The notes beneath the pieces are model-generated. The model did no database searches. It was not told the origin of the DNA and saw only the letters and a program-made list of their open reading frames with translations. A stretch of DNA of 25,065 nucleotides from Gaiellaceae bacterium (GTDB lineage Bacteria > Actinomycetota > Thermoleophilia > Gaiellales > Gaiellaceae): assembly GCA_033857355.1 (NCBI GenBank), contig JAWVDL010000058.1, positions 1 through 25,065 of the forward strand. Direction: 5' to 3'. A program made the translations under genes and the position numbers. Positions 2,341 to 18,644 of the stretch are shown one piece after another. Positions within the stretch are counted from its first letter, which is position 1, and the number at the start of each line of letters is the position of its first letter.

Positions 2341-3345
2341 GTGCCGACCGTCCTCTTCACGTGCGCCGGCCAGCGCGTCGACATCGTCACGGCGTTCTGC
2401 CGTGCGGGCGCGACGACGATCGCGACCGACGTCAATCCGCTTGCGCCGGCGCTCTACCACGCCGACCGCTACGCACTCGTCCCGCGGATCGGAACGCCCG
2501 ACTACGTCCCTGCGCTGCGCGATCTCGTTCGCGCGCACGACGTCGACCTGATCGTCCCGCTCACCGATCTCGACCCACCCGTGCTCGCGCGCGCCCGCGA
2601 CGAGCTCGGCGCGCTCGTGCTCCTCCCGGATGCAGAGCTCGTCGACTTGCTCGGCGACAAGTACCGCGCCCACCAGCTCTTCCTCGAGCGCGGGATCGGA
2701 TCCCCTCCGACCTGGCTACCCGACGAGCTGCCCGACGAGGTCGAGCTGCCGGTGCTCGTGAAAGCGCGGGAAGGCTTCGGCTCGCGGCACATCTACCGCG
2801 CCGACACGCGCGAGCAGCTGGACTTCTTCCTCGGCTACACGCCCGTCGACTCGATGGTGCAGGCCGTCTGCCTGGGAGAGGAGTTCTCGATCGACGTGTT
2901 CTGCGACCTCGAGGGGCACTGCGTGGCCGCGATCCCGCGCACGATGATCGAATCCAAGGGCGGCGAGTCGATCAAGGGCCGGAGCATCAAGGACTGGGAT
3001 CTGATCGAGCACGCCTGCGGTGTCGCCGAGGCGTTGCGGCTCGTGGGGCCGGCGAACATCCAGTGCTTCCGCGAGCCGGGCGGGAAGAAGCTCGTGACCG
3101 ACATCAACCCGCGCTTCGGCGGCGGCTTCCCGCTGCCACTCGCGGCCGGTGGCCGGTATCCGGAGCTTGCGCTCGCACTGGCAGCGGGGGAGCGGCTCGA
3201 GCCGAAGCTTGGGGAGTTCCGCGAAGGCGTCGTGATGACGCGCTTCTTCTCCCACCTGTCTCTGACCGCCGCAGGCGACGGTACGCTCGATCCGTTCGCC
3301 GAGGACCTCCCAGAGCCCGTCGCCACAGAGCCCGGCGAGGCGTGA
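2341..3345 (+). CDS. ATP-grasp domain protein (carbamoyl-phosphate-synthase-like, polysaccharide-cluster type)
   Basis: DKYRAH, PVLVKAREGFGSR, EEFSIDVF, ANIQCF, TDINPRFGGG motifs; TAGGCT -10 element 7 nt before the GTG start. Confidence 0.85.
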   Translation: MPTVLFTCAGQRVDIVTAFCRAGATTIATDVNPLAPALYHADRYALVPRIGTPDYVPALRDLVRAHDVDLIVPLTDLDPPVLARARDELGALVLLPDAELVDLLGDKYRAHQLFLERGIGSPPTWLPDELPDEVELPVLVKAREGFGSRHIYRADTREQLDFFLGYTPVDSMVQAVCLGEEFSIDVFCDLEGHCVAAIPRTMIESKGGESIKGRSIKDWDLIEHACGVAEALRLVGPANIQCFREPGGKKLVTDINPRFGGGFPLPLAAGGRYPELALALAAGERLEPKLGEFREGVVMTRFFSHLSLTAAGDGTLDPFAEDLPEPVATEPGEA

Positions 3346-13451: not shown

Positions 13452-14021
13452 ATGGAGGACGTGCCTGCCGAAAGCGCCACCGCCGCAGAGCTCGTCGCCC
13501 GCTGCCGGGCCGGCGACCAGGACGCCTGGCGCGCGCTCGTCGAGCGGTTCTCGCGCTACGTCTTTGCGATCGCCGTCCAGGGCTTCCGGCTCCCGGAGCA
13601 TGCGGCCGAGGATGTCTTCCAGGAGGTCTTCGCCCGAACCTACGAGCACCTCGACCGGCTCCGCGACGACGCGGCGATTCAACCCTGGCTCGCCCAGCTC
13701 ACGCGCAGGCTCTGCATCGACCATCTGCGCGCTTCGTCGCGGGAGCAGCTCGAGGAAGAGCCCGAGCCCGACGTCGCGGAGGACACGTTCGAGCGCCTGG
13801 ACGATGCGCTCGCGGTGCACGAGGCGCTGGCCGAGCTGCCCGAGCAATGCGGGGAGATCCTCGACCGGTTCTTCGCGCGCGACGAGAGCTACCGGACGAT
13901 CGGCGAGCTCCTCGGCTTGCCTGCGGGAACCATCGCCAGCCGGATCTCGCGGTGCCTCGCAAAGCTGCGCGAGCACTTCGAGGGAAGAAATCCGTCCCCC
14001 AGCCCGTCTGGTGATCGATGA
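13452..14021 (+). CDS. ECF RNA polymerase sigma factor (sigma70 group IV)
   Basis: DQDAWRALVERFSRYVFAIA, AEDVFQEVF, WLAQLTRRLCIDHLR (region 2); LAELPEQCGEIL...SYRTIGELLGLPAGTIASRISRCLAKLR (region 4). Confidence 0.95.
   Translation: MEDVPAESATAAELVARCRAGDQDAWRALVERFSRYVFAIAVQGFRLPEHAAEDVFQEVFARTYEHLDRLRDDAAIQPWLAQLTRRLCIDHLRASSREQLEEEPEPDVAEDTFERLDDALAVHEALAELPEQCGEILDRFFARDESYRTIGELLGLPAGTIASRISRCLAKLREHFEGRNPSPSPSGDR
13982..14013 (+). promoter_or_regulatory. ECF-type promoter copy B inside the 3' end of the sigma gene: GGGAAGA-N16-CGTCTGGTG
   Basis: -35 at 13982-13988, -10 CGTC at 14005-14008, ATG of the next gene at 14018. Confidence 0.8.
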
Positions 14022-14272
14022 CCCATTACGACGAAGACCGGCTGGCTGCGCTGCTGCGCGTACTTCCGCCCGCTCCGAGAGGGTGGGTCACGGCTGCCCA
14101 GGAGCTGCCTCTGGCGCGCCGAGGGCTCGACGAGATCGTCGCCCGTGCCGAAGCCGACGCCGAGTTCAGGGCGCGGCTCGTCGCCGACCTCGAAGCCGCG
14201 CTCGAGGCCGAGGGCTACGAGCGGGACCCGGCCGTGCTCGAGGCGCTCCGGCAGCGTTTGGCCGGCGGTTGA
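14018..14272 (+). CDS. 84-aa soluble protein; candidate anti-sigma factor with an NHLP-leader-like C-terminal half
   Basis: ATGA overlap with the sigma gene; EIVARAEADAEFRARLVADLEAALEAEGY resembles NHLP-clan leaders; no TM helix; ends in GG. Confidence 0.75.
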   Translation: MTHYDEDRLAALLRVLPPAPRGWVTAAQELPLARRGLDEIVARAEADAEFRARLVADLEAALEAEGYERDPAVLEALRQRLAGG

Positions 14273-14859
14273 GCGAAGCCGACGACCTGCTTGGTCTGAG
14301 CGTCGGCGAGCTCCTCGACGAGCTGGCTTCGTCGGCTCCCGTTCCCGGATCTGGGTCGGCCTCCGCGCTCGTTGCGGCGATGGCCGCCGCGCTCGTGTCG
14401 ATGGCCGCGCGGCTTGCCTCCGACTGGGAGGACGCGTCGGGTGTCGCCGCCCAGGCAGACGCGCTGCGGATCCGCGCGGGCCGGCTCGCGCAGCTCGACG
14501 CAGAGGCGTACGGCGCCGTGCTCGAGCTCCGCGAGGCTCCTCTGGAGGAGCGACCCGAGGATCGAGACTTCCGTCTCGGAGGAGCGTTCTCGCACGCGGC
14601 GGACGTGCCGCTCGAGATCGCCGGCGTCGCCGAGGACGTCGCGGAGCTTGCAGCGCTCGTCGCCCACGCGAGCGCGCTCGCGCCGCGGGCGGACGCCGCC
14701 GGGGCGGCCGTGCTGGCGGCTGCGGCCGCCCGGAGCGCGGCGAGCCTCGTGGCGATCAACCTGTCGGTGGCGGAAGGCGATCCTCGCCCCGTGCGTGCTC
14801 GTGCGCACGCCCAGGCGGCCGAGCTCGCTGCTCGGCGCGCGCTCGAGGCGTCGGGCTAG
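14269..14859 (+). CDS. Cyclodeaminase/cyclohydrolase family protein (FTCD C-terminal domain-like)
   Basis: TTGA overlap; LLDELASSAPVPGSGSASALVAAMAAALVSM, DAEAY, AADVPLEIA, VAINL motifs. Confidence 0.85.
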   Translation: MSEADDLLGLSVGELLDELASSAPVPGSGSASALVAAMAAALVSMAARLASDWEDASGVAAQADALRIRAGRLAQLDAEAYGAVLELREAPLEERPEDRDFRLGGAFSHAADVPLEIAGVAEDVAELAALVAHASALAPRADAAGAAVLAAAAARSAASLVAINLSVAEGDPRPVRARAHAQAAELAARRALEASG

Positions 14860-14916: not shown

Positions 14917-15120
14917 TCAGGCCGGCGCGGCGATTGCGGGCGCCGCGGCTTCGCGGACTCGGCGGTGGGCGAAGACCGGGCCCAGCGAGCTCAGTGCGCG
15001 CCGGACGCGGTGCTCACGCGGAACGGCCTCGGCGGCCAGGCGGTAGCGGGCCGCCTCGCGCAAGAGATCGTCGTTGCGGGCTCTGGCGAGTTCTTGCATC
15101 ACATATGGGTGGGACTGCAT
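14917..15120 (-). CDS. 67-aa hypothetical helical protein
   Basis: SD AAGGAG before the ATG, ECF-type promoter copy C upstream, terminator downstream; MQSHPYVMQELARARNDDLLREAARYRLAAEA... Confidence 0.75.
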   Translation of the reverse strand: MQSHPYVMQELARARNDDLLREAARYRLAAEAVPREHRVRRALSSLGPVFAHRRVREAAAPAIAAPA

Positions 15121-15197: not shown

Positions 15198-16016
15198 ATG
15201 TCGCACGAGCCCCTCCCCGCCTGGAGCCTCCGGCCCGATGCCGTCGAGGAGCTCGCGGCCGCTACGGACTGGCCCGAGCGCATGACGCGCGACTGGGCCT
15301 GGGGCGGTGCGACCGGCTCGGGAGTTCGGGTCTGCATCCTCGACAGCGGCATCGAGCCCGGGCATCCGCTCGTCGGCGCGGTCGACCGGTCGGTGGCGCT
15401 CAGCGGCGAGGGCGACGACGTGACGGTCGCGGAGGACGCCGAAGGCGACCTGTGCGGACACGGGACGGCGTGCGCCGGCATCGTTCGCTCGATCGCGCCC
15501 GACTGTTCCATCTCGAGCGTCCGCGTGCTCGGGGCGGGGTACACGGGCAGCGGAAGCATCCTGCTGGCGGGTCTGCGGTGGGCGATCGAGCAGGAGTACG
15601 ACGTGATCAACATGAGCCTGTCGACCACGAAGCGTCAGTTCGCGAGCACCTTGCACGAGCTCGCCGACAGCGCCTATTTTCGGCGGACGATGCTCGTCGC
15701 CTCGGCCCACAACATGCCCGTCGAGAGCTATCCCTGGCGGTTCGCCTCGGTCATCTCCGTCGGCAGCCACGAGGACGACGACCCGCTCGCCTACTACTAC
15801 AACCCGCGCCCGCCGGTCGAGTTCTTCGCGCGCGGGCTCAACCTCGAGGTCGCCTGGCTCGGCGGCGGCACCCTGCACGTGACGGGGAACAGCTTCGCGA
15901 CGCCCCACATGACGGCGATCTGCGCCCTCGTCCTGAGCAAGCACCGCGAGCTGACGCCGTTCCAGCTCAAGAGCCTGCTCTACCTGACCGCGTCGAACGT
16001 GGGAGGCGAGGGATGA
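15198..16016 (+). CDS. S8 family (subtilase) serine peptidase, cytoplasmic, no obvious signal peptide or long propeptide
   Basis: Catalytic motifs CILDSG (Asp), HGTACAG (His), VASAHN (oxyanion Asn), GNSFATP (Ser); start at ATG 15198, 8 nt after TAGGCT. Confidence 0.92.
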   Translation: MSHEPLPAWSLRPDAVEELAAATDWPERMTRDWAWGGATGSGVRVCILDSGIEPGHPLVGAVDRSVALSGEGDDVTVAEDAEGDLCGHGTACAGIVRSIAPDCSISSVRVLGAGYTGSGSILLAGLRWAIEQEYDVINMSLSTTKRQFASTLHELADSAYFRRTMLVASAHNMPVESYPWRFASVISVGSHEDDDPLAYYYNPRPPVEFFARGLNLEVAWLGGGTLHVTGNSFATPHMTAICALVLSKHRELTPFQLKSLLYLTASNVGGEG

Positions 16017-16663
16017 GCGAGGAGGAGCTTCGGGCAGCGGTCGCGGCCGGCGTGCTCGGCGCGGAGGAGTCGTTCCAGAGCCTCTTGCAGTCGGTTGTCG
16101 AGGTCGCCCGGGCGATCTTCCGCGCGCAGGCGTCGTCCATCTTCCTGCTCGACGAGCAGACGGACGAGCTGGTTTTCGAAGCGGTCGCCGGCGAGGGCGC
16201 CGACACGCTCCGCGGCCGCCGTTTTCCGTCGAGCACCGGCGTCGCCGGGTGGGTGCTGGTCGCCCGCCAGCCGCTCGTGATCGAGAACGTCGGCGAGGAT
16301 CCTCGCTTCGCCCGTGAGGCCGCCGAGAGCACGGGCTACGTCCCGAAAGGGCTCATGGCGGTCCCGCTCCTGCACGAAGAACGTGCGCTCGGCGTGCTCG
16401 AAGTGCTCGACCGGCCGCAGGAGGCGGCCTTCAGCCTCGCCGAGATCGAGCTCCTGGGCCTTTTTGCGAATCAGGCTGCGATCGCGCTCGACCTGCTCCG
16501 GCGGGCGCGACGAGCGCAAGCCGCTGTGCAGGGCAGCCAGCTCGCCGTCGTCGCGCGGATCGCCCGCGCCCTCGACGAAGAGCCCAGGCGCCGGAAGGAT
16601 GCCACGCTTCGTCTGCTCGAGGCGATCGAGGAGCTGCTCGCCGACCGCCCCGAGAACGACTGA
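16013..16663 (+). CDS. Stand-alone GAF domain protein
   Basis: ATGA overlap with the peptidase; SSIFLLDEQTDELVF, GVAGWV, DPRF, LMAVPL...LGVLEVLDR, FANQAAIAL; short C-terminal helix and no output domain. Confidence 0.9.
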   Translation: MSEEELRAAVAAGVLGAEESFQSLLQSVVEVARAIFRAQASSIFLLDEQTDELVFEAVAGEGADTLRGRRFPSSTGVAGWVLVARQPLVIENVGEDPRFAREAAESTGYVPKGLMAVPLLHEERALGVLEVLDRPQEAAFSLAEIELLGLFANQAAIALDLLRRARRAQAAVQGSQLAVVARIARALDEEPRRRKDATLRLLEAIEELLADRPEND

Positions 16664-16681
16664 GCCCGGCCGAAGCCGGGC
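16664..16681. terminator. GC-rich hairpin GCCCGGC-CGAA-GCCGGGC between convergent genes
   Basis: Perfect 7-bp stem; reads as a c(UUCG)g tetraloop on the minus strand; no clear U-tract. Confidence 0.55.
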
Positions 16682-16708
16682 CCAGTTCGAAGAGTCGAGA
16701 CCGACGGG

Positions 16709-16873
16709 CTAGGGCTCGTTGCGGTCCGTCTCGCTTTCCATCCCGGCGTCATTCCGTCCGATGTCGGCACGGCCCACGTCGGCCCGTCCTACGTCGTACC
16801 GATGAGCCTCGACATCCGGCTCCTCTTTCTCGTCCTCTGCGGAGCGGACATGCTCGTCCTGTCCTTCTGACAT
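16709..16873 (-). CDS. 54-aa acidic peptide with tandem DxGRx repeats (precursor-like)
   Basis: SD AAGGAGGAG before ATG 16873; MSEGQDEHVRSAEDEKEEPDVEAHRY-DVGRA-DVGRA-DIGRN-DAGME-SETDRNEP; ECF promoter copy D upstream. Confidence 0.75.
   Translation of the reverse strand: MSEGQDEHVRSAEDEKEEPDVEAHRYDVGRADVGRADIGRNDAGMESETDRNEP
16742..16795 (-). repeat. 15-bp-period coding repeat (DVGRA/DVGRA/DIGRN/DAG)
   Basis: GAC GTA GGA CGG GCC / GAC GTG GGC CGT GCC / GAC ATC GGA CGG AAT / GAC GCC GGG. Confidence 0.8.
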
Positions 16874-16912
16874 TTCTCCTCCTTCCGGAAGGTCCGCGCG
16901 ATCTGCGCTACA

Positions 16913-16944
16913 CACCAGACGCGGAATCCTGGCCGAATCTTCCC
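16913..16944 (-). promoter_or_regulatory. ECF-type promoter copy D: GGGAAGA-N16-CGTCTGGTG
   Basis: -35 at 16944-16938, -10 CGTC at 16921-16918; the 9-nt -10 region is identical to copy B. Confidence 0.8.
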
Positions 16945-16988
16945 ACGTCGCTCTTCCAAAACACAATCGGCACTGCGATCCTGCGCGC

Positions 16989-18644
16989 GTGAAGCCGGCA
17001 AACCGCCTCGGCGACTCGTTGCACGCGTTCCGCGACGTCTTCCGGAATCGCGATCTGCGACGCCTCGAGCTCGCCTGGGCGGGCTCGATGATCGGCACCT
17101 GGGCGTACGGCGTCGGGCTCGTGGTGTTCGCGTACGAGGCCGGCGGTGCGACGGCGGTCGGCCTCGTCGGCTTCGCCCGCTGGACGGCGGCGGCGCTGGC
17201 GGCTCCGCTGACCGGAGCGCTCGGCGACCGGCTGCCACGGGCGCGCGTGATGGTCGGAGCAGACGCGATTCGCGCGGTGACGCTGGTGGCAGCCGCGGCG
17301 GTGGTGTTCGCCAACGCCCCGGTCTGGATCGTCTACGTGCTCTCGGGAGTGGTTGCGGTGACCTCTACGGCCTTTCGGCCGGCTCAAGCGGCGCTCGTGC
17401 CGTCGCTCGCCCAGACGCCGCAGGAGCTGACCGCGGCAAACGTCGTCGCCACGACGATCGAGAGCGCGGGGATCTTCATTGGCCCTGCGCTCGGCGGCTT
17501 CCTGCTCGCGGTCTCGTCCACGGGCGTCGTCTTCCTCGTCACCGCTGCGACCTTCGTCTGGTCGGCCGCGCTCGTGCTGCGGATCACGCCGAAGCCCGCG
17601 CCGAAGCCAGAGGAGGGTGCGGCGCGAGAGCCGTTTCTCGCGCACGCAGCCGGCGGCTTCCGCGCGATCGCGGGCGACAAGGGCCTGCGCGTGCTCGTCG
17701 GTCTCCTCGCCGCGCAGACCTTCGTCATGGGGGCCTTGAGCGTGCTGGTCGTGGTTGCGTCGATCGAGGTCGTGGGCCTCGGCAGCTCCGGCGTCGGGAT
17801 CCTCAACTCGGCGCTCGGTGTCGGCGGGCTTCTCGGCGCGGTCGCAGCGGCCGTGTTCGTGGGGCGCGAGCGGCTCGCGGTCGGGTTCACCCTCGGGATC
17901 GTGCTCTGGGGACTGCCGATCGCGCTCATCGGCATCTGGCCGAGTGCCGTTCTCGCAGTGGTCATGCTCGGCTGCGTCGGTGTCGGGAACACCGTCGTCG
18001 ACGTCGCCGGGATGACGTTGCTCCAGCGGTCGGCCGCCGACGCGGTGCTTGCGCGGGTCTTCGGCGTGCTCGAGAGCCTCATCGTCGGCTCGATCGCGCT
18101 CGGGGCGGCCGCCGCGCCGCTGCTGATCGCTGCTGTCGGCGCGCGTGGCGCGCTCGTCGTCACCGGCGCCTTTCTCCCGGTCCTCGTCGCGCTCACGTGG
18201 CGGAGGTTGTCGGTGATCGACTCAAGCGCAACCCCGCCCCTCGCCCGCGTGGCGCTGCTGCGCGCGATTCCGATTTTCGCGCCGCTCCCGGCGCCGGCCC
18301 TCGAACGGACGGCGTCGCGCCTCGTCCCCGTGCAGGCCGCCGCGGGCACCGAGATCATCCGGGCCGGCGAGCCCGGCGATCGCTTCTACATCGTCGAGAG
18401 CGGCGAGGTGGAGATCCTGCCGGAGGCGAACGATCCGTCGCTGCACGGGCCGGGGGCCTACTTCGGGGAGATCGCCCTCCTGCGGGACTTGCCCCGAACG
18501 GCCACCGTCCGCGCCCGCAGCGACGTCGCGCTCCTCGCGCTTGCGCGCGACGACTTCCTTGCCGCGGTCAACGGCGATCCCGAGAGCCGCCAAGCGGCGG
18601 ACATGGTCGTCATGTCGCGCCTCGCGCCGTCGGTGCCCGTCTAG
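16989..18644 (+). CDS. MFS transporter fused to a C-terminal cyclic-nucleotide-binding domain
   Basis: TGALGDRLPRARVM (motif A), many TM segments; C-terminal LLRAIPIF...GEPGDRFYIVESGEV...YFGEIALLRDLPRTATVRA. Confidence 0.9.
   Translation: MKPANRLGDSLHAFRDVFRNRDLRRLELAWAGSMIGTWAYGVGLVVFAYEAGGATAVGLVGFARWTAAALAAPLTGALGDRLPRARVMVGADAIRAVTLVAAAAVVFANAPVWIVYVLSGVVAVTSTAFRPAQAALVPSLAQTPQELTAANVVATTIESAGIFIGPALGGFLLAVSSTGVVFLVTAATFVWSAALVLRITPKPAPKPEEGAAREPFLAHAAGGFRAIAGDKGLRVLVGLLAAQTFVMGALSVLVVVASIEVVGLGSSGVGILNSALGVGGLLGAVAAAVFVGRERLAVGFTLGIVLWGLPIALIGIWPSAVLAVVMLGCVGVGNTVVDVAGMTLLQRSAADAVLARVFGVLESLIVGSIALGAAAAPLLIAAVGARGALVVTGAFLPVLVALTWRRLSVIDSSATPPLARVALLRAIPIFAPLPAPALERTASRLVPVQAAAGTEIIRAGEPGDRFYIVESGEVEILPEANDPSLHGPGAYFGEIALLRDLPRTATVRARSDVALLALARDDFLAAVNGDPESRQAADMVVMSRLAPSVPV

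What the first reader, a model, noticed from the sequence alone, without database searches (positions are those of the whole stretch)
16709..16885. Acidic 54-aa leader-plus-repeat peptide that looks like a multi-core precursor
An acidic leader ends in EPDVEAH and is followed by RY and then DVGRA-DVGRA-DIGRN-DAGME. The repeats differ at synonymous positions (GTA/GTG, GGA/GGC, CGG/CGT), which points to selection on the peptide rather than recent slippage. It has the strongest SD in the window (AAGGAGGAG) and ECF promoter copy D. It sits between a subtilase operon and a transporter, the layout of peptide-signal or RiPP loci. No classical maturase (rSAM, YcaO, LanM) is in the window, so simple proteolysis into 5-mers, as in Phr-type signals, is plausible.
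Basis: partly seen in the sequence, partly recalled or inferred. Interest (0 to 1): 0.78.

Follow-up and report, generated by a model that had tools for sequence, protein, structure and literature searches.

The report
ECF-driven DVEAH repeat peptide beside subtilase
A real, transcribed 54-residue acidic mini-protein of a soil Gaiellaceae bacterium belongs to a large unnamed family of "DVE(A/G)H-cassette" peptides that always travel with a cytoplasmic subtilisin-type protease, a GAF sensor and a cyclic-nucleotide-gated membrane pump, which points to an undescribed peptide-cutting (and perhaps peptide-exporting) pathway.

Summary
Window 16709-16873 (-) encodes a 54-aa acidic peptide: leader, EPDVEAH, then RY, then DVGRA-DVGRA-DIGRN-DAGME. 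It is a real gene. Evidence: pN/pS of 0.14-0.23, a strong SD, a conserved ECF-type promoter (GGGAAGA-N16-CGTC), a terminator hairpin, and short RNA-library contigs from four soil studies that cover this gene but not its neighbours.

It belongs to an unnamed family with no Pfam, NCBIfam or literature match. Members carry 1-4 cassettes of [DE][DE][PDE]-D-V-E-[AG]-H-[RK], each followed by a short variable segment, often basic.

In 14 of 15 assessable Thermoleophilia loci the gene sits beside the same signal-peptide-less S8 peptidase-GAF pair, and in most of them also beside an MFS-CNBD transporter gene. More distant Actinomycetota have DVEGH versions next to the same S8-GAF pair.

The Phr-like 5-mer reading does not: there is no signal peptide, the protease is cytoplasmic, and the conserved unit is the cassette, not the pentad.

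Best reading (about 0.45): a dedicated substrate or precursor of the S8-GAF protease, cut at DVEAH|R, with its product possibly exported.

This scan has already reported the same family on other DNA (Chloroflexota, Nocardioides). New here are the ECF-sigma control, the pentad-repeat subtype and the expression evidence.

The parts
16918..16944 (-). ECF-type promoter GGGAAGA-N16-CGTC (copy D of four in the window)
   Evidence: 4 matches against 0.02 expected; 9 in the whole assembly; the same motif (0-1 mismatch, spacer 16) lies 36-62 nt upstream of the start codon in the 13 Thermoleophilia homologues examined, and as an exact match upstream of the homologue in L002-L007.
16876..16886 (-). Shine-Dalgarno GGAAGGAGGAG, 2 nt before the ATG
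   Evidence: Equivalent AAGGAGG/AGGAGGAG sites precede the homologues.
16709..16873 (-). CDS of the 54-aa peptide P0001 (stop codon included)
   Evidence: pN/pS is 0.14-0.23 at pS 0.34-0.56 against three same-genus orthologues. Nine metagenome homologues share invariant N-terminus, motif and tail.
16802..16816 (-). DVEAH motif (residues 20-24), the invariant family signature; proposed protease recognition or cleavage site
   Evidence: Logo of 112 instances: [DE][DE][PDE]-D-V-E-[AG]-H-[RK].
16736..16795 (-). Pentad repeat region DVGRA-DVGRA-DIGRN-DAGME (residues 27-46)
   Evidence: Copy number varies from 4 to 6 in steps of 5 aa among close homologues and in RNA-library contigs (joint 16750/16833).
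16712..16741 (-). Conserved C-terminal tail MESETDRNEP (residues 45-54)
   Evidence: Invariant in 10 of 10 close homologues. Related endings ...TEP/...ETP occur in other genera.
16660..16685 (.). G+C-rich hairpin (UUCG loop) between the convergent GAF and peptide genes; terminator-like on both strands, no U tail
   Evidence: -45.4 kcal/mol, z = -3.3. RNA-library contigs end at 16637-16678. The consensus terminator scan found nothing.
15198..16016 (+). S8 (subtilisin-type) peptidase, 272 aa, no signal peptide or propeptide; proposed processing enzyme
   Evidence: D49/H88/S232 are invariant in 31 homologues. AF2 pLDDT is 89.5. The best PDB matches are Ca-loop-deleted subtilisin BPN'.
16013..16663 (+). 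Stand-alone GAF protein, start overlapping the S8 stop (ATGA)
   Evidence: It is adjacent to S8 in all but one of the loci examined.
16989..18644 (+). MFS transporter fused to a C-terminal cyclic-nucleotide-binding domain, divergent from the peptide gene
   Evidence: It is adjacent in 16 of the 18 DVEAH-peptide loci checked by tblastn (Thermoleophilia genomes plus L020), and in the metagenome contigs.
13452..14021 (+). ECF sigma factor, presumed to read the four GGGAAGA-N16-CGTC promoters
   Evidence: It is co-located in many Thermoleophilia loci. Direct sigma-promoter pairing is inferred.
14018..14859 (+). NHLP/Frankia_peptide-like 84-aa protein ending in GG (14018-14272) and an FTCD_C-fold protein (14269-14859), downstream of the sigma gene
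   Evidence: These are accessory to the module in Thermoleophilia only.

Best explanation
The ORF is a genuine, highly transcribed gene for a 54-residue, acidic, unstructured peptide. It is one member of an unnamed family of DVE(A/G)H-cassette peptides. The family forms a conserved module with a cytoplasmic subtilisin-type S8 peptidase, a GAF sensor protein coupled to it, and an MFS transporter gated by a cyclic-nucleotide-binding domain.

Proposed mechanism:
1. In Gaiellaceae the neighbouring ECF sigma factor switches the gene on through GGGAAGA-N16-CGTC. The promoter conservation and RNA contigs are shown; the sigma-promoter pairing is inferred.
2. The peptide is translated. This is inferred from purifying selection and the SD.
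3. The S8 peptidase, under control of its GAF partner, recognises V-E-A-H as P4-P1 and cuts before the following Arg/Lys. This is inferred from the invariant motif, its fit to subtilisin P4/P2/P1 preferences, and strict gene linkage.
4. The released repeat-bearing C-terminal part either leaves the cell through the MFS-CNBD pump or is turned over. In relatives the released parts would be short basic peptides. This step is inferred from linkage only.
For: Coding and expression:
- pN/pS is 0.14-0.23.
- The SD and promoter are conserved in all relatives checked.
- RNA-library contigs from four soil studies span 16637-16913. That is roughly from a few bases past the -10 element to the hairpin. None reaches the GAF or MFS genes.

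Family:
- A profile search of 1.8 billion proteins, plus genome loci, gave 64 non-redundant small proteins with 112 motif instances. The flanks are acidic at P8-P6 and R/K at P1' in 93 of 112.
- Proteins carry 1-4 cassettes.
- In 7 of 12 multi-cassette proteins with short tails, the protein ends exactly where the repeated post-motif segment ends. This is as expected if that segment is a defined product.

Linkage:
- 14 of 15 assessable S8-GAF loci in Thermoleophilia have such an ORF. It stays next to S8 or MFS even when gene order is rearranged (L038, L040) or an IS element is inserted (L009).
- The same holds on metagenome contigs and in distant Actinomycetota (L054, L055, L060, L062).

Protease:
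- It is intact (triad invariant), lacks a signal peptide and has a subtilisin BPN'-like fold.
- It resembles in size the leader-cleaving protease QhpE (NCBIfam, 96 bits, below cutoff).

Peptide: no confident fold (pLDDT 59, pTM 0.14), as expected for a protease substrate.
Against: - No cleavage, product or export has been observed; all functional steps rest on gene linkage and motif logic.
- The part conserved across the family is the motif, not the supposed product. This fits a docking or inhibitory motif equally well.
- In this protein the whole sequence, including the tail MESETDRNEP, is conserved within the genus. That is unexpected for a discarded remnant.
- MFS pumps usually carry small molecules, so a 30-residue fragment would need further trimming.
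- His at P1 is not a preferred subtilisin P1 residue (general knowledge).
- RNA evidence comes from assembled contigs chosen because they hold this gene. They show neither strand nor level, and DNA carry-over cannot be excluded.
Confidence: 0.45

Rival explanations
1. Intracellular regulator rather than precursor. The DVEAH motif is a short linear motif that docks on the S8 peptidase or its GAF partner as a pseudo-substrate, inhibitor, activator or decoy. ECF-induced expression of the peptide would then tune the protease's action on other targets, for example the NHLP-like sigma partner. The variable repeats would be spacers.
For: - Only the motif and its acidic flank are conserved family-wide. 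What follows is hypervariable and often low-complexity.
- Multiple motifs per protein would raise avidity.
- The protease lacks a propeptide, the usual built-in inhibitor.
- In Gaiellaceae the peptide gene is a sigma target and S8-GAF lies directly downstream of the sigma genes on the same strand, a wiring that suits feedback.
Against: - Post-motif segments are kept identical within a protein while the spacers differ, and proteins end exactly at the end of that segment. Pure spacers would not be expected to behave this way.
- The co-conserved, divergently placed exporter has no role in this model.
- The NHLP-like protein has no DVEAH motif.
Confidence: 0.25
2. The peptide is a Phr-like multi-core signal precursor that is cut into DVGRA/ADVGR-type pentapeptides, which are exported and sensed as quorum or stress signals.
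For: - The pentads have a fixed period with Arg/Lys every fifth residue in many family members.
- The unit sequence differs between genera but is homogenised within a protein, like pherotype diversification.
- An exporter gene is adjacent.
Against: - The precursor has no signal peptide.
- No RRNPP/Rap-type receptor or Opp genes are in the locus.
- Many family members have no pentads at all.
- The subtilisin-like protease is not expected to cut after Arg-Ala repeatedly (general knowledge).
- The conserved tail argues against simple dicing.
Confidence: 0.12
3. A stand-alone stress protein: an ECF-induced, intrinsically disordered, highly charged hydrophilin-like or metal-binding (Asp/Glu/His) peptide. 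Its linkage to S8-GAF-MFS would reflect shared regulation, not a shared pathway.
For: - ECF promoter.
- Apparently abundant monocistronic transcript in soil RNA libraries.
- Disordered and highly charged.
- The D/E/H motif could ligate metals (inference).
Against: Linkage to S8-GAF survives rearrangements, IS insertion and replacement of the ECF promoter by other upstream elements in distant Actinomycetota. This goes beyond co-regulation. A single His per motif is a weak metal site.
Confidence: 0.1

Closest known systems
Cyanobactin precursors (PatE) processed by the subtilisin-like proteases PatA/PatG
   Same: - A small precursor with 1-4 cassettes, each a short conserved recognition sequence next to a hypervariable segment (PMC4663559, read).
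- An S8 protease is encoded beside it.
- V-E-A-H resembles the PatA site G(L/V)E(A/P)S as I recall it, which I could not verify in a held paper.
   Different: - The S8 here is a bare 272-aa subtilisin core closest to BPN'. It has no PatA/PatG DUF or macrocyclase domain, and the NCBIfam PatA model scores 28.7 bits against a cutoff of 421.
- There is only one protease and no heterocyclase or prenyltransferase.
- The host is an actinomycete, not a cyanobacterium.
- No C-terminal recognition sequence is evident.
Phr/RRNPP-type signalling peptides of Firmicutes
   Same: Small precursor genes yielding about 5-residue products. Subtilisin-family proteases take part in maturation (general knowledge).
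   Different: Phr precursors carry Sec signal peptides, are cut outside the cell, and sit next to Rap/RRNPP receptors. None of these is present here.
Intracellular subtilisin proteases (ISPs) of Bacillus and the leader protease QhpE
   Same: A signal-peptide-less, propeptide-less subtilisin core with a short N-terminal extension. The best NCBIfam matches are QhpE and mycosin, both far below cutoff. QhpE removes a leader from a small peptide subunit (general knowledge).
   Different: There is no GAF partner, no DVEAH-type substrate and no cNMP-gated pump in those systems. The N-terminal motif here is LPAWSL, not LIPY/F. No rSAM or other Qhp genes are present.
DVEGH-repeat proteins beside GAF-coupled subtilases, noted earlier by this scan in Chloroflexota, Nocardioides and other Actinomycetota (unpublished AI notes)
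   Same: Same motif, same S8-GAF pairing, and a cyclic-nucleotide theme with an MFS pump (independently seen here).
   Different: - This Gaiellaceae branch is driven by an ECF sigma promoter instead of a Crp-type regulator or site.
- It usually has one or two DVEAH cassettes followed by x-D/E-x-G-R pentads.
- It adds an NHLP-like protein and an FTCD_C protein to the cluster.

Membership tests
DVE(A/G)H-cassette small proteins (unnamed family) | 45-120 aa, acidic, with at least one [DE][DE][PDE]-D-V-E-[AG]-H-[RK] motif | tested here: met
   EEPDVEAHR at residues 17-25.
DVE(A/G)H-cassette small proteins (unnamed family) | Gene adjacent to a signal-peptide-less S8 peptidase-GAF pair | tested here: met
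   14 of 15 assessable Thermoleophilia loci.
DVE(A/G)H-cassette small proteins (unnamed family) | Adjacent cyclic-nucleotide-linked gene (MFS-CNBD or Crp) | tested here: met
   MFS-CNBD at 16989-18644, divergent from the peptide gene. Conserved across loci.
Cyanobactin pathway (PatE-type precursor) | PatA/PatG-type proteases with DUF and macrocyclase domains | tested here: not met
   The S8 is 272 aa. The PatA model scores 28.7 bits against a cutoff of 421. The nearest structures are subtilisin BPN'. There is no second protease.
Cyanobactin pathway (PatE-type precursor) | Cores flanked by both N-terminal and C-terminal recognition sequences | tested here: inconclusive
   An N-terminal-type motif (DVEAH) is present. 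No conserved C-terminal recognition sequence was seen.
Phr / RRNPP signalling peptides | Sec signal peptide on the precursor | tested here: not met
   The N-terminus MSEGQDEHVRSAEDEKEE is acidic with no hydrophobic stretch.
Phr / RRNPP signalling peptides | Cognate Rap/RRNPP (TPR) receptor gene adjacent | tested here: not met
   None among the window's genes.
NHLP / Nif11 leader RiPP precursors | NHLP or Nif11 leader homology and a Gly-Gly cleavage motif | tested here: not met
   No Pfam or NCBIfam hit for P0001 even at E = 10 and E = 0.1 respectively, and no GG motif. The NHLP-like protein of the locus is a different gene (P0011).
Pentapeptide-repeat proteins (PF00805 clan) | Long array of A(D/N)LXX pentads forming a quadrilateral beta-helix | tested here: not met
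   Only about 3.5 pentads. No Pfam hit. Only 1 of 28 relatives hits each penta model, at E of 0.07-0.13. AF2 gives no beta-helix (pLDDT 59).
Regulon of the neighbouring ECF sigma factor | Bipartite ECF-type promoter at the correct distance, conserved in orthologues | tested here: met
   An RNA contig ends at 16913, 5 nt past the CGTC.
Regulon of the neighbouring ECF sigma factor | Transcription depends on that sigma factor | not testable with these tools
   Needs in vitro transcription or genetics.

The most novel reading that the evidence does not exclude
Soil Actinomycetota and Chloroflexota possess a previously unrecognised route to ribosomal peptides. A second-messenger-gated (GAF) cytoplasmic subtilisin cuts multi-cassette DVE(A/G)H precursors into short, unmodified, lineage-specific peptides. 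A cyclic-nucleotide-gated MFS pump then exports them as signals or metal-binding agents. In Gaiellaceae the whole pathway is placed under an ECF stress sigma factor.
Probability: 0.3. Interest if true: 0.85.

Novelty: new variant of a known kind. Interest (0 to 1): 0.7.

Why it matters
If the reading is right, this is a widespread and abundantly transcribed peptide-processing module in uncultured soil Actinomycetota. It has no family model, no name and no literature. It would link three kinds of signalling (an ECF sigma factor, GAF and cyclic-nucleotide domains, and regulated proteolysis) to a hypervariable set of tiny gene-encoded peptides.

The module gives a directly testable substrate-enzyme pair: a 54-mer and a 272-aa subtilisin. 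It could reveal a new class of bacterial signals, or a new way to control an intracellular protease.

Even on the conservative reading, the finding shows that a strongly expressed small gene is systematically missed or left unnamed in annotation.

Tried and rejected
- Pfam and NCBIfam scans of the peptide and of 28 relatives found no family, only chance-level hits.
- Literature searches for DVEAH/DVEGH, Franean1_4349, and subtilisin + GAF + CNBD combinations found nothing relevant.
- The paper I wanted for the exact PatA site (PMC4384831) is not held. That resemblance therefore rests on memory.
- ESM Atlas returned only unnamed clusters, at scores below 0.9.
- The search for related loci with the broad alignment A3 failed for lack of a conserved stretch. 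With A2 it confirmed only 7 of 246 pattern hits, because confirmation uses the first sequence.
- The profile search returned many long low-complexity repeat proteins that lack DVE[AG]H. I treated these as false positives and kept only proteins of 130 aa or fewer that carry the motif. The five motif residues in the logo are therefore circular; only the flanks are independent.
- The consensus sigma-70 promoter and terminator scan found nothing.
- Pentapeptide-repeat fold: rejected (see the membership test).
- An sRNA-only reading is rejected by pN/pS.
- Shared cleavage motif with the NHLP-like protein: its family has ADLEAAL but no DVEAH, so the 'decoy of the anti-sigma site' idea has no sequence support.
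- No DVEGH-type ORF was seen within the 1.5-kb flanks of most distant S8-GAF loci. This does not show absence.

Full report
**The observation**

The minus strand of window 16709-16873 translates to MSEGQDEHVRSAEDEKEEPDVEAHRYDVGRADVGRADIGRNDAGMESETDRNEP, 54 aa. GGAAGGAGGAG lies 2 nt before the ATG. The three full pentads use different codons. Tandem Repeats Finder sees a diverged 15-nt period. The gene fills the gap between a GAF gene ending at 16663 and an MFS-CNBD gene starting at 16989.

**It is a real gene**

- Orthologues in three genomes of the same genus give pN/pS of 0.14-0.23 at pS 0.34-0.56. The frame is therefore translated and constrained. One of these genomes, G001 (locus L004), is unpublished. 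The pairs without it give 0.14-0.19.
- Nine metagenome homologues keep the N-terminus, EPDVE(A/G)HR and the tail MESETDRNEP invariant. The repeat number changes in steps of five residues.
- GGGAAGA-N16-CGTC lies at 16944-16918. It occurs four times in this window against 0.02 expected, and nine times in the 2.0-Mb assembly.
- The same promoter motif is found as an exact match upstream of the homologue in L002-L007. In the 13 further Thermoleophilia homologues examined it has 0-1 mismatch, always a 16-nt spacer, and lies 36-62 nt before the start.
- A strong hairpin at 16660-16685 follows the stop.
- Contigs from RNA libraries of four independent soil studies lie on 16637-16913 only. One ends at 16913, 5 nt past the CGTC. 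None reaches the GAF or MFS genes within the 1-kb stretch laid.
- Some of those contigs carry a longer repeat region, so repeat-number variants are present in RNA libraries too.

Caveats on the RNA evidence: these are assembled contigs from runs selected for holding this gene. They show no strand and no expression level, and DNA carry-over cannot be excluded.

**The family**

More distant genera of the same family (Gaiellaceae, by the record titles) encode related ORFs. Some have two DVEAHR-plus-repeat modules and other pentads such as QDLGR, TEVGR and HDAAR.

A profile search of 1.8 billion representative proteins gave dozens of small proteins with 1-4 copies of the motif. Together with ORFs found in genome loci, I collected 64 non-redundant members with 112 motif instances. 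The logo is [DE][DE][PDE]-D-V-E-[AG]-H-[RK], with Arg/Lys at the next position in 93 of 112. The five core residues defined the set, so only the flanks are independent evidence.

Pfam, NCBIfam, the ESM Atlas and the literature hold nothing for the family.

Two architectures exist.
- **Pentad tails**, as in this protein.
- **Short-core cassettes**, such as ...DDVEAH-RRRA, -RLA, -KKPSVA, -VKQGRA, -AHAHK, -KMGRK and -RKAR.

In 7 of 12 multi-cassette proteins with tails of 8 residues or fewer, the protein ends exactly where the repeated post-motif segment ends, while the acidic spacers differ.

**Context**

The cluster in the window reads:
- ECF sigma (13452-14021)
- an NHLP/Frankia_peptide-like 84-aa protein ending in GG (14018-14272)
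- an FTCD_C protein (14269-14859)
- S8 peptidase (15198-16016)
- GAF (16013-16663)
- the peptide gene, convergent
- MFS-CNBD (16989-18644), divergent
- an MBL hydrolase and a CNBD protein

A search for the GAF protein in 151 genomes of the class found it in 19, including this window's own genome. In 14 of the 15 loci that carry S8-GAF and are not cut by a contig end, a DVE(A/G)H-type ORF (once DFEGH) lies beside it. In 13 of these 14 an MFS-CNBD gene is also nearby.

The linkage survives rearrangement (L038, L040) and an IS insertion (L009). Metagenome contigs of a 38 %-identical relative show the same MFS-CNBD | peptide | GAF | S8 layout.

At phylum scale the S8 peptidase (46-62 % identity) occurs in 26 of 401 genomes, nearly always next to a GAF gene and often near an MFS-CNBD gene. 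DVEGH-cassette ORFs are visible within the short flanks in L044, L054, L055, L060 and L062. Two rows of that table (L058 and L064) come from the unpublished genomes G298 and G269, and nothing depends on them. In those distant loci the ECF promoter is absent.

**The partners**

The S8 peptidase is 272 aa with no signal peptide or propeptide. The Asp/His/Ser triad and the oxyanion Asn are invariant in 31 homologues. It folds confidently (pLDDT 89.5). It is closest to calcium-loop-deleted subtilisin BPN' at 30-34 % identity. It is not PatA-like.

The peptide itself has no confident fold (pLDDT 59, pTM 0.14).

**Mechanism**

The invariant V-E-[AG]-H offers a hydrophobic P4 and a small P2, as subtilisins prefer (general knowledge). 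It is flanked by an acidic run and followed by Arg/Lys.

This motif, the strict linkage to an intact cytoplasmic subtilisin, and the cassette architecture lead to my best reading. The peptide is the protease's dedicated substrate or precursor, cut at DVEAH|R, with the GAF protein gating the protease and the MFS-CNBD pump possibly exporting the product. I put this at about 0.45.

The main rival is that the motif is a docking or inhibitory element and the peptide a regulator of the protease (0.25).
- the precursor has no signal peptide;
- the protease is cytoplasmic;
- no receptor gene is nearby;
- many relatives have no pentads.

A stand-alone stress or metal-binding peptide (0.1) does not explain linkage that outlasts changes in regulation.

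**Comparison and novelty**

The closest known logic is the cyanobactin precursor: 1-4 hypervariable cores flanked by short recognition sequences and cut by subtilisin-like proteases (PMC4663559, read). The defining enzymes are absent, so this is an analogy and not membership. Phr, NHLP and pentapeptide-repeat memberships were tested and not met.

The scan's notebook shows that the same DVEGH / GAF-coupled subtilase association was already noted on other DNA, in Chloroflexota, Nocardioides and other Actinomycetota. I found it independently here before reading those notes, but they are AI notes and not evidence.

New in this window:
- ECF-sigma control, replacing the Crp-type control noted earlier for other branches;
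- the pentad-repeat subtype with a conserved ...NEP tail;
- the short-core tail regularity;
- RNA-library support.

Noticed in passing
L052:3249-3536 (+) (genome G405): Next to a GAF-S8 pair lies a 95-aa ORF with an NHLP-like leader. It is followed by EDIDAH and a Tyr/His/Trp-rich C-terminus (…YYSYYYGPHRHYYRHY…). The D-I-D-A-H sits at an apparent leader-core junction and may tie the DVEAH motif to NHLP-type precursors.
   Followed up: no
L060 and L062, about 90 nt upstream of the DVEGH peptide genes: Instead of the ECF promoter, these distant Actinomycetota loci have palindromes: TGACA-N7-TGTCA in L060 and the CRP-like TGTCA-N6-TGACA in L062. This is consistent with Crp-type control of the same peptide family in other lineages.
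   Followed up: partly
window 14917-15120 (-): A 67-aa ORF (MQSHPYVMQELARARNDDLLREAARYRLAAE...) sits directly behind ECF promoter copy C (15180-15154), divergent from the S8 gene. It is not a DVEAH peptide. Its function is unknown.
   Followed up: partly
window 15198-15320 (S8 N-terminus): The roughly 40-residue extension before the catalytic Asp carries a conserved LPAWSL motif (consensus of 31 homologues). It is reminiscent of the inhibitory LIPY/F extension of Bacillus intracellular subtilisins.
   Followed up: no
window 16945-16975 (-) and the same place in L002-L004: The element GATTGTGTTTTG(G/A)AAG just upstream of the -35 box is conserved across the genus. It may be an additional regulator site, or the divergent MFS-CNBD promoter.
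   Followed up: no
L009:8082-9476 (genome G017): A DDE transposase is inserted between the GAF gene and the peptide gene. The peptide gene keeps its promoter and reading frame.
   Followed up: partly
L012:10589-11395 and L011:6388-9864: Large adenylate/guanylate-cyclase STAND/TPR proteins (one with a BTAD domain) lie a few kb from the S8 gene in two relatives. This adds to the cyclic-nucleotide theme (GAF, two CNBD genes, MBL hydrolase) of the locus.
   Followed up: no
window 16750-16833: RNA-library contigs from three studies replace these 82 nt with 109 other letters. These are expressed relatives with a longer repeat region.
   Followed up: partly
window 2341-3345 (+): A PylC-like / ATP-grasp_Ter ligase gene sits inside the polysaccharide gene cluster, 13 kb from the peptide. 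No link to the module was seen in other genomes' loci.
   Followed up: no
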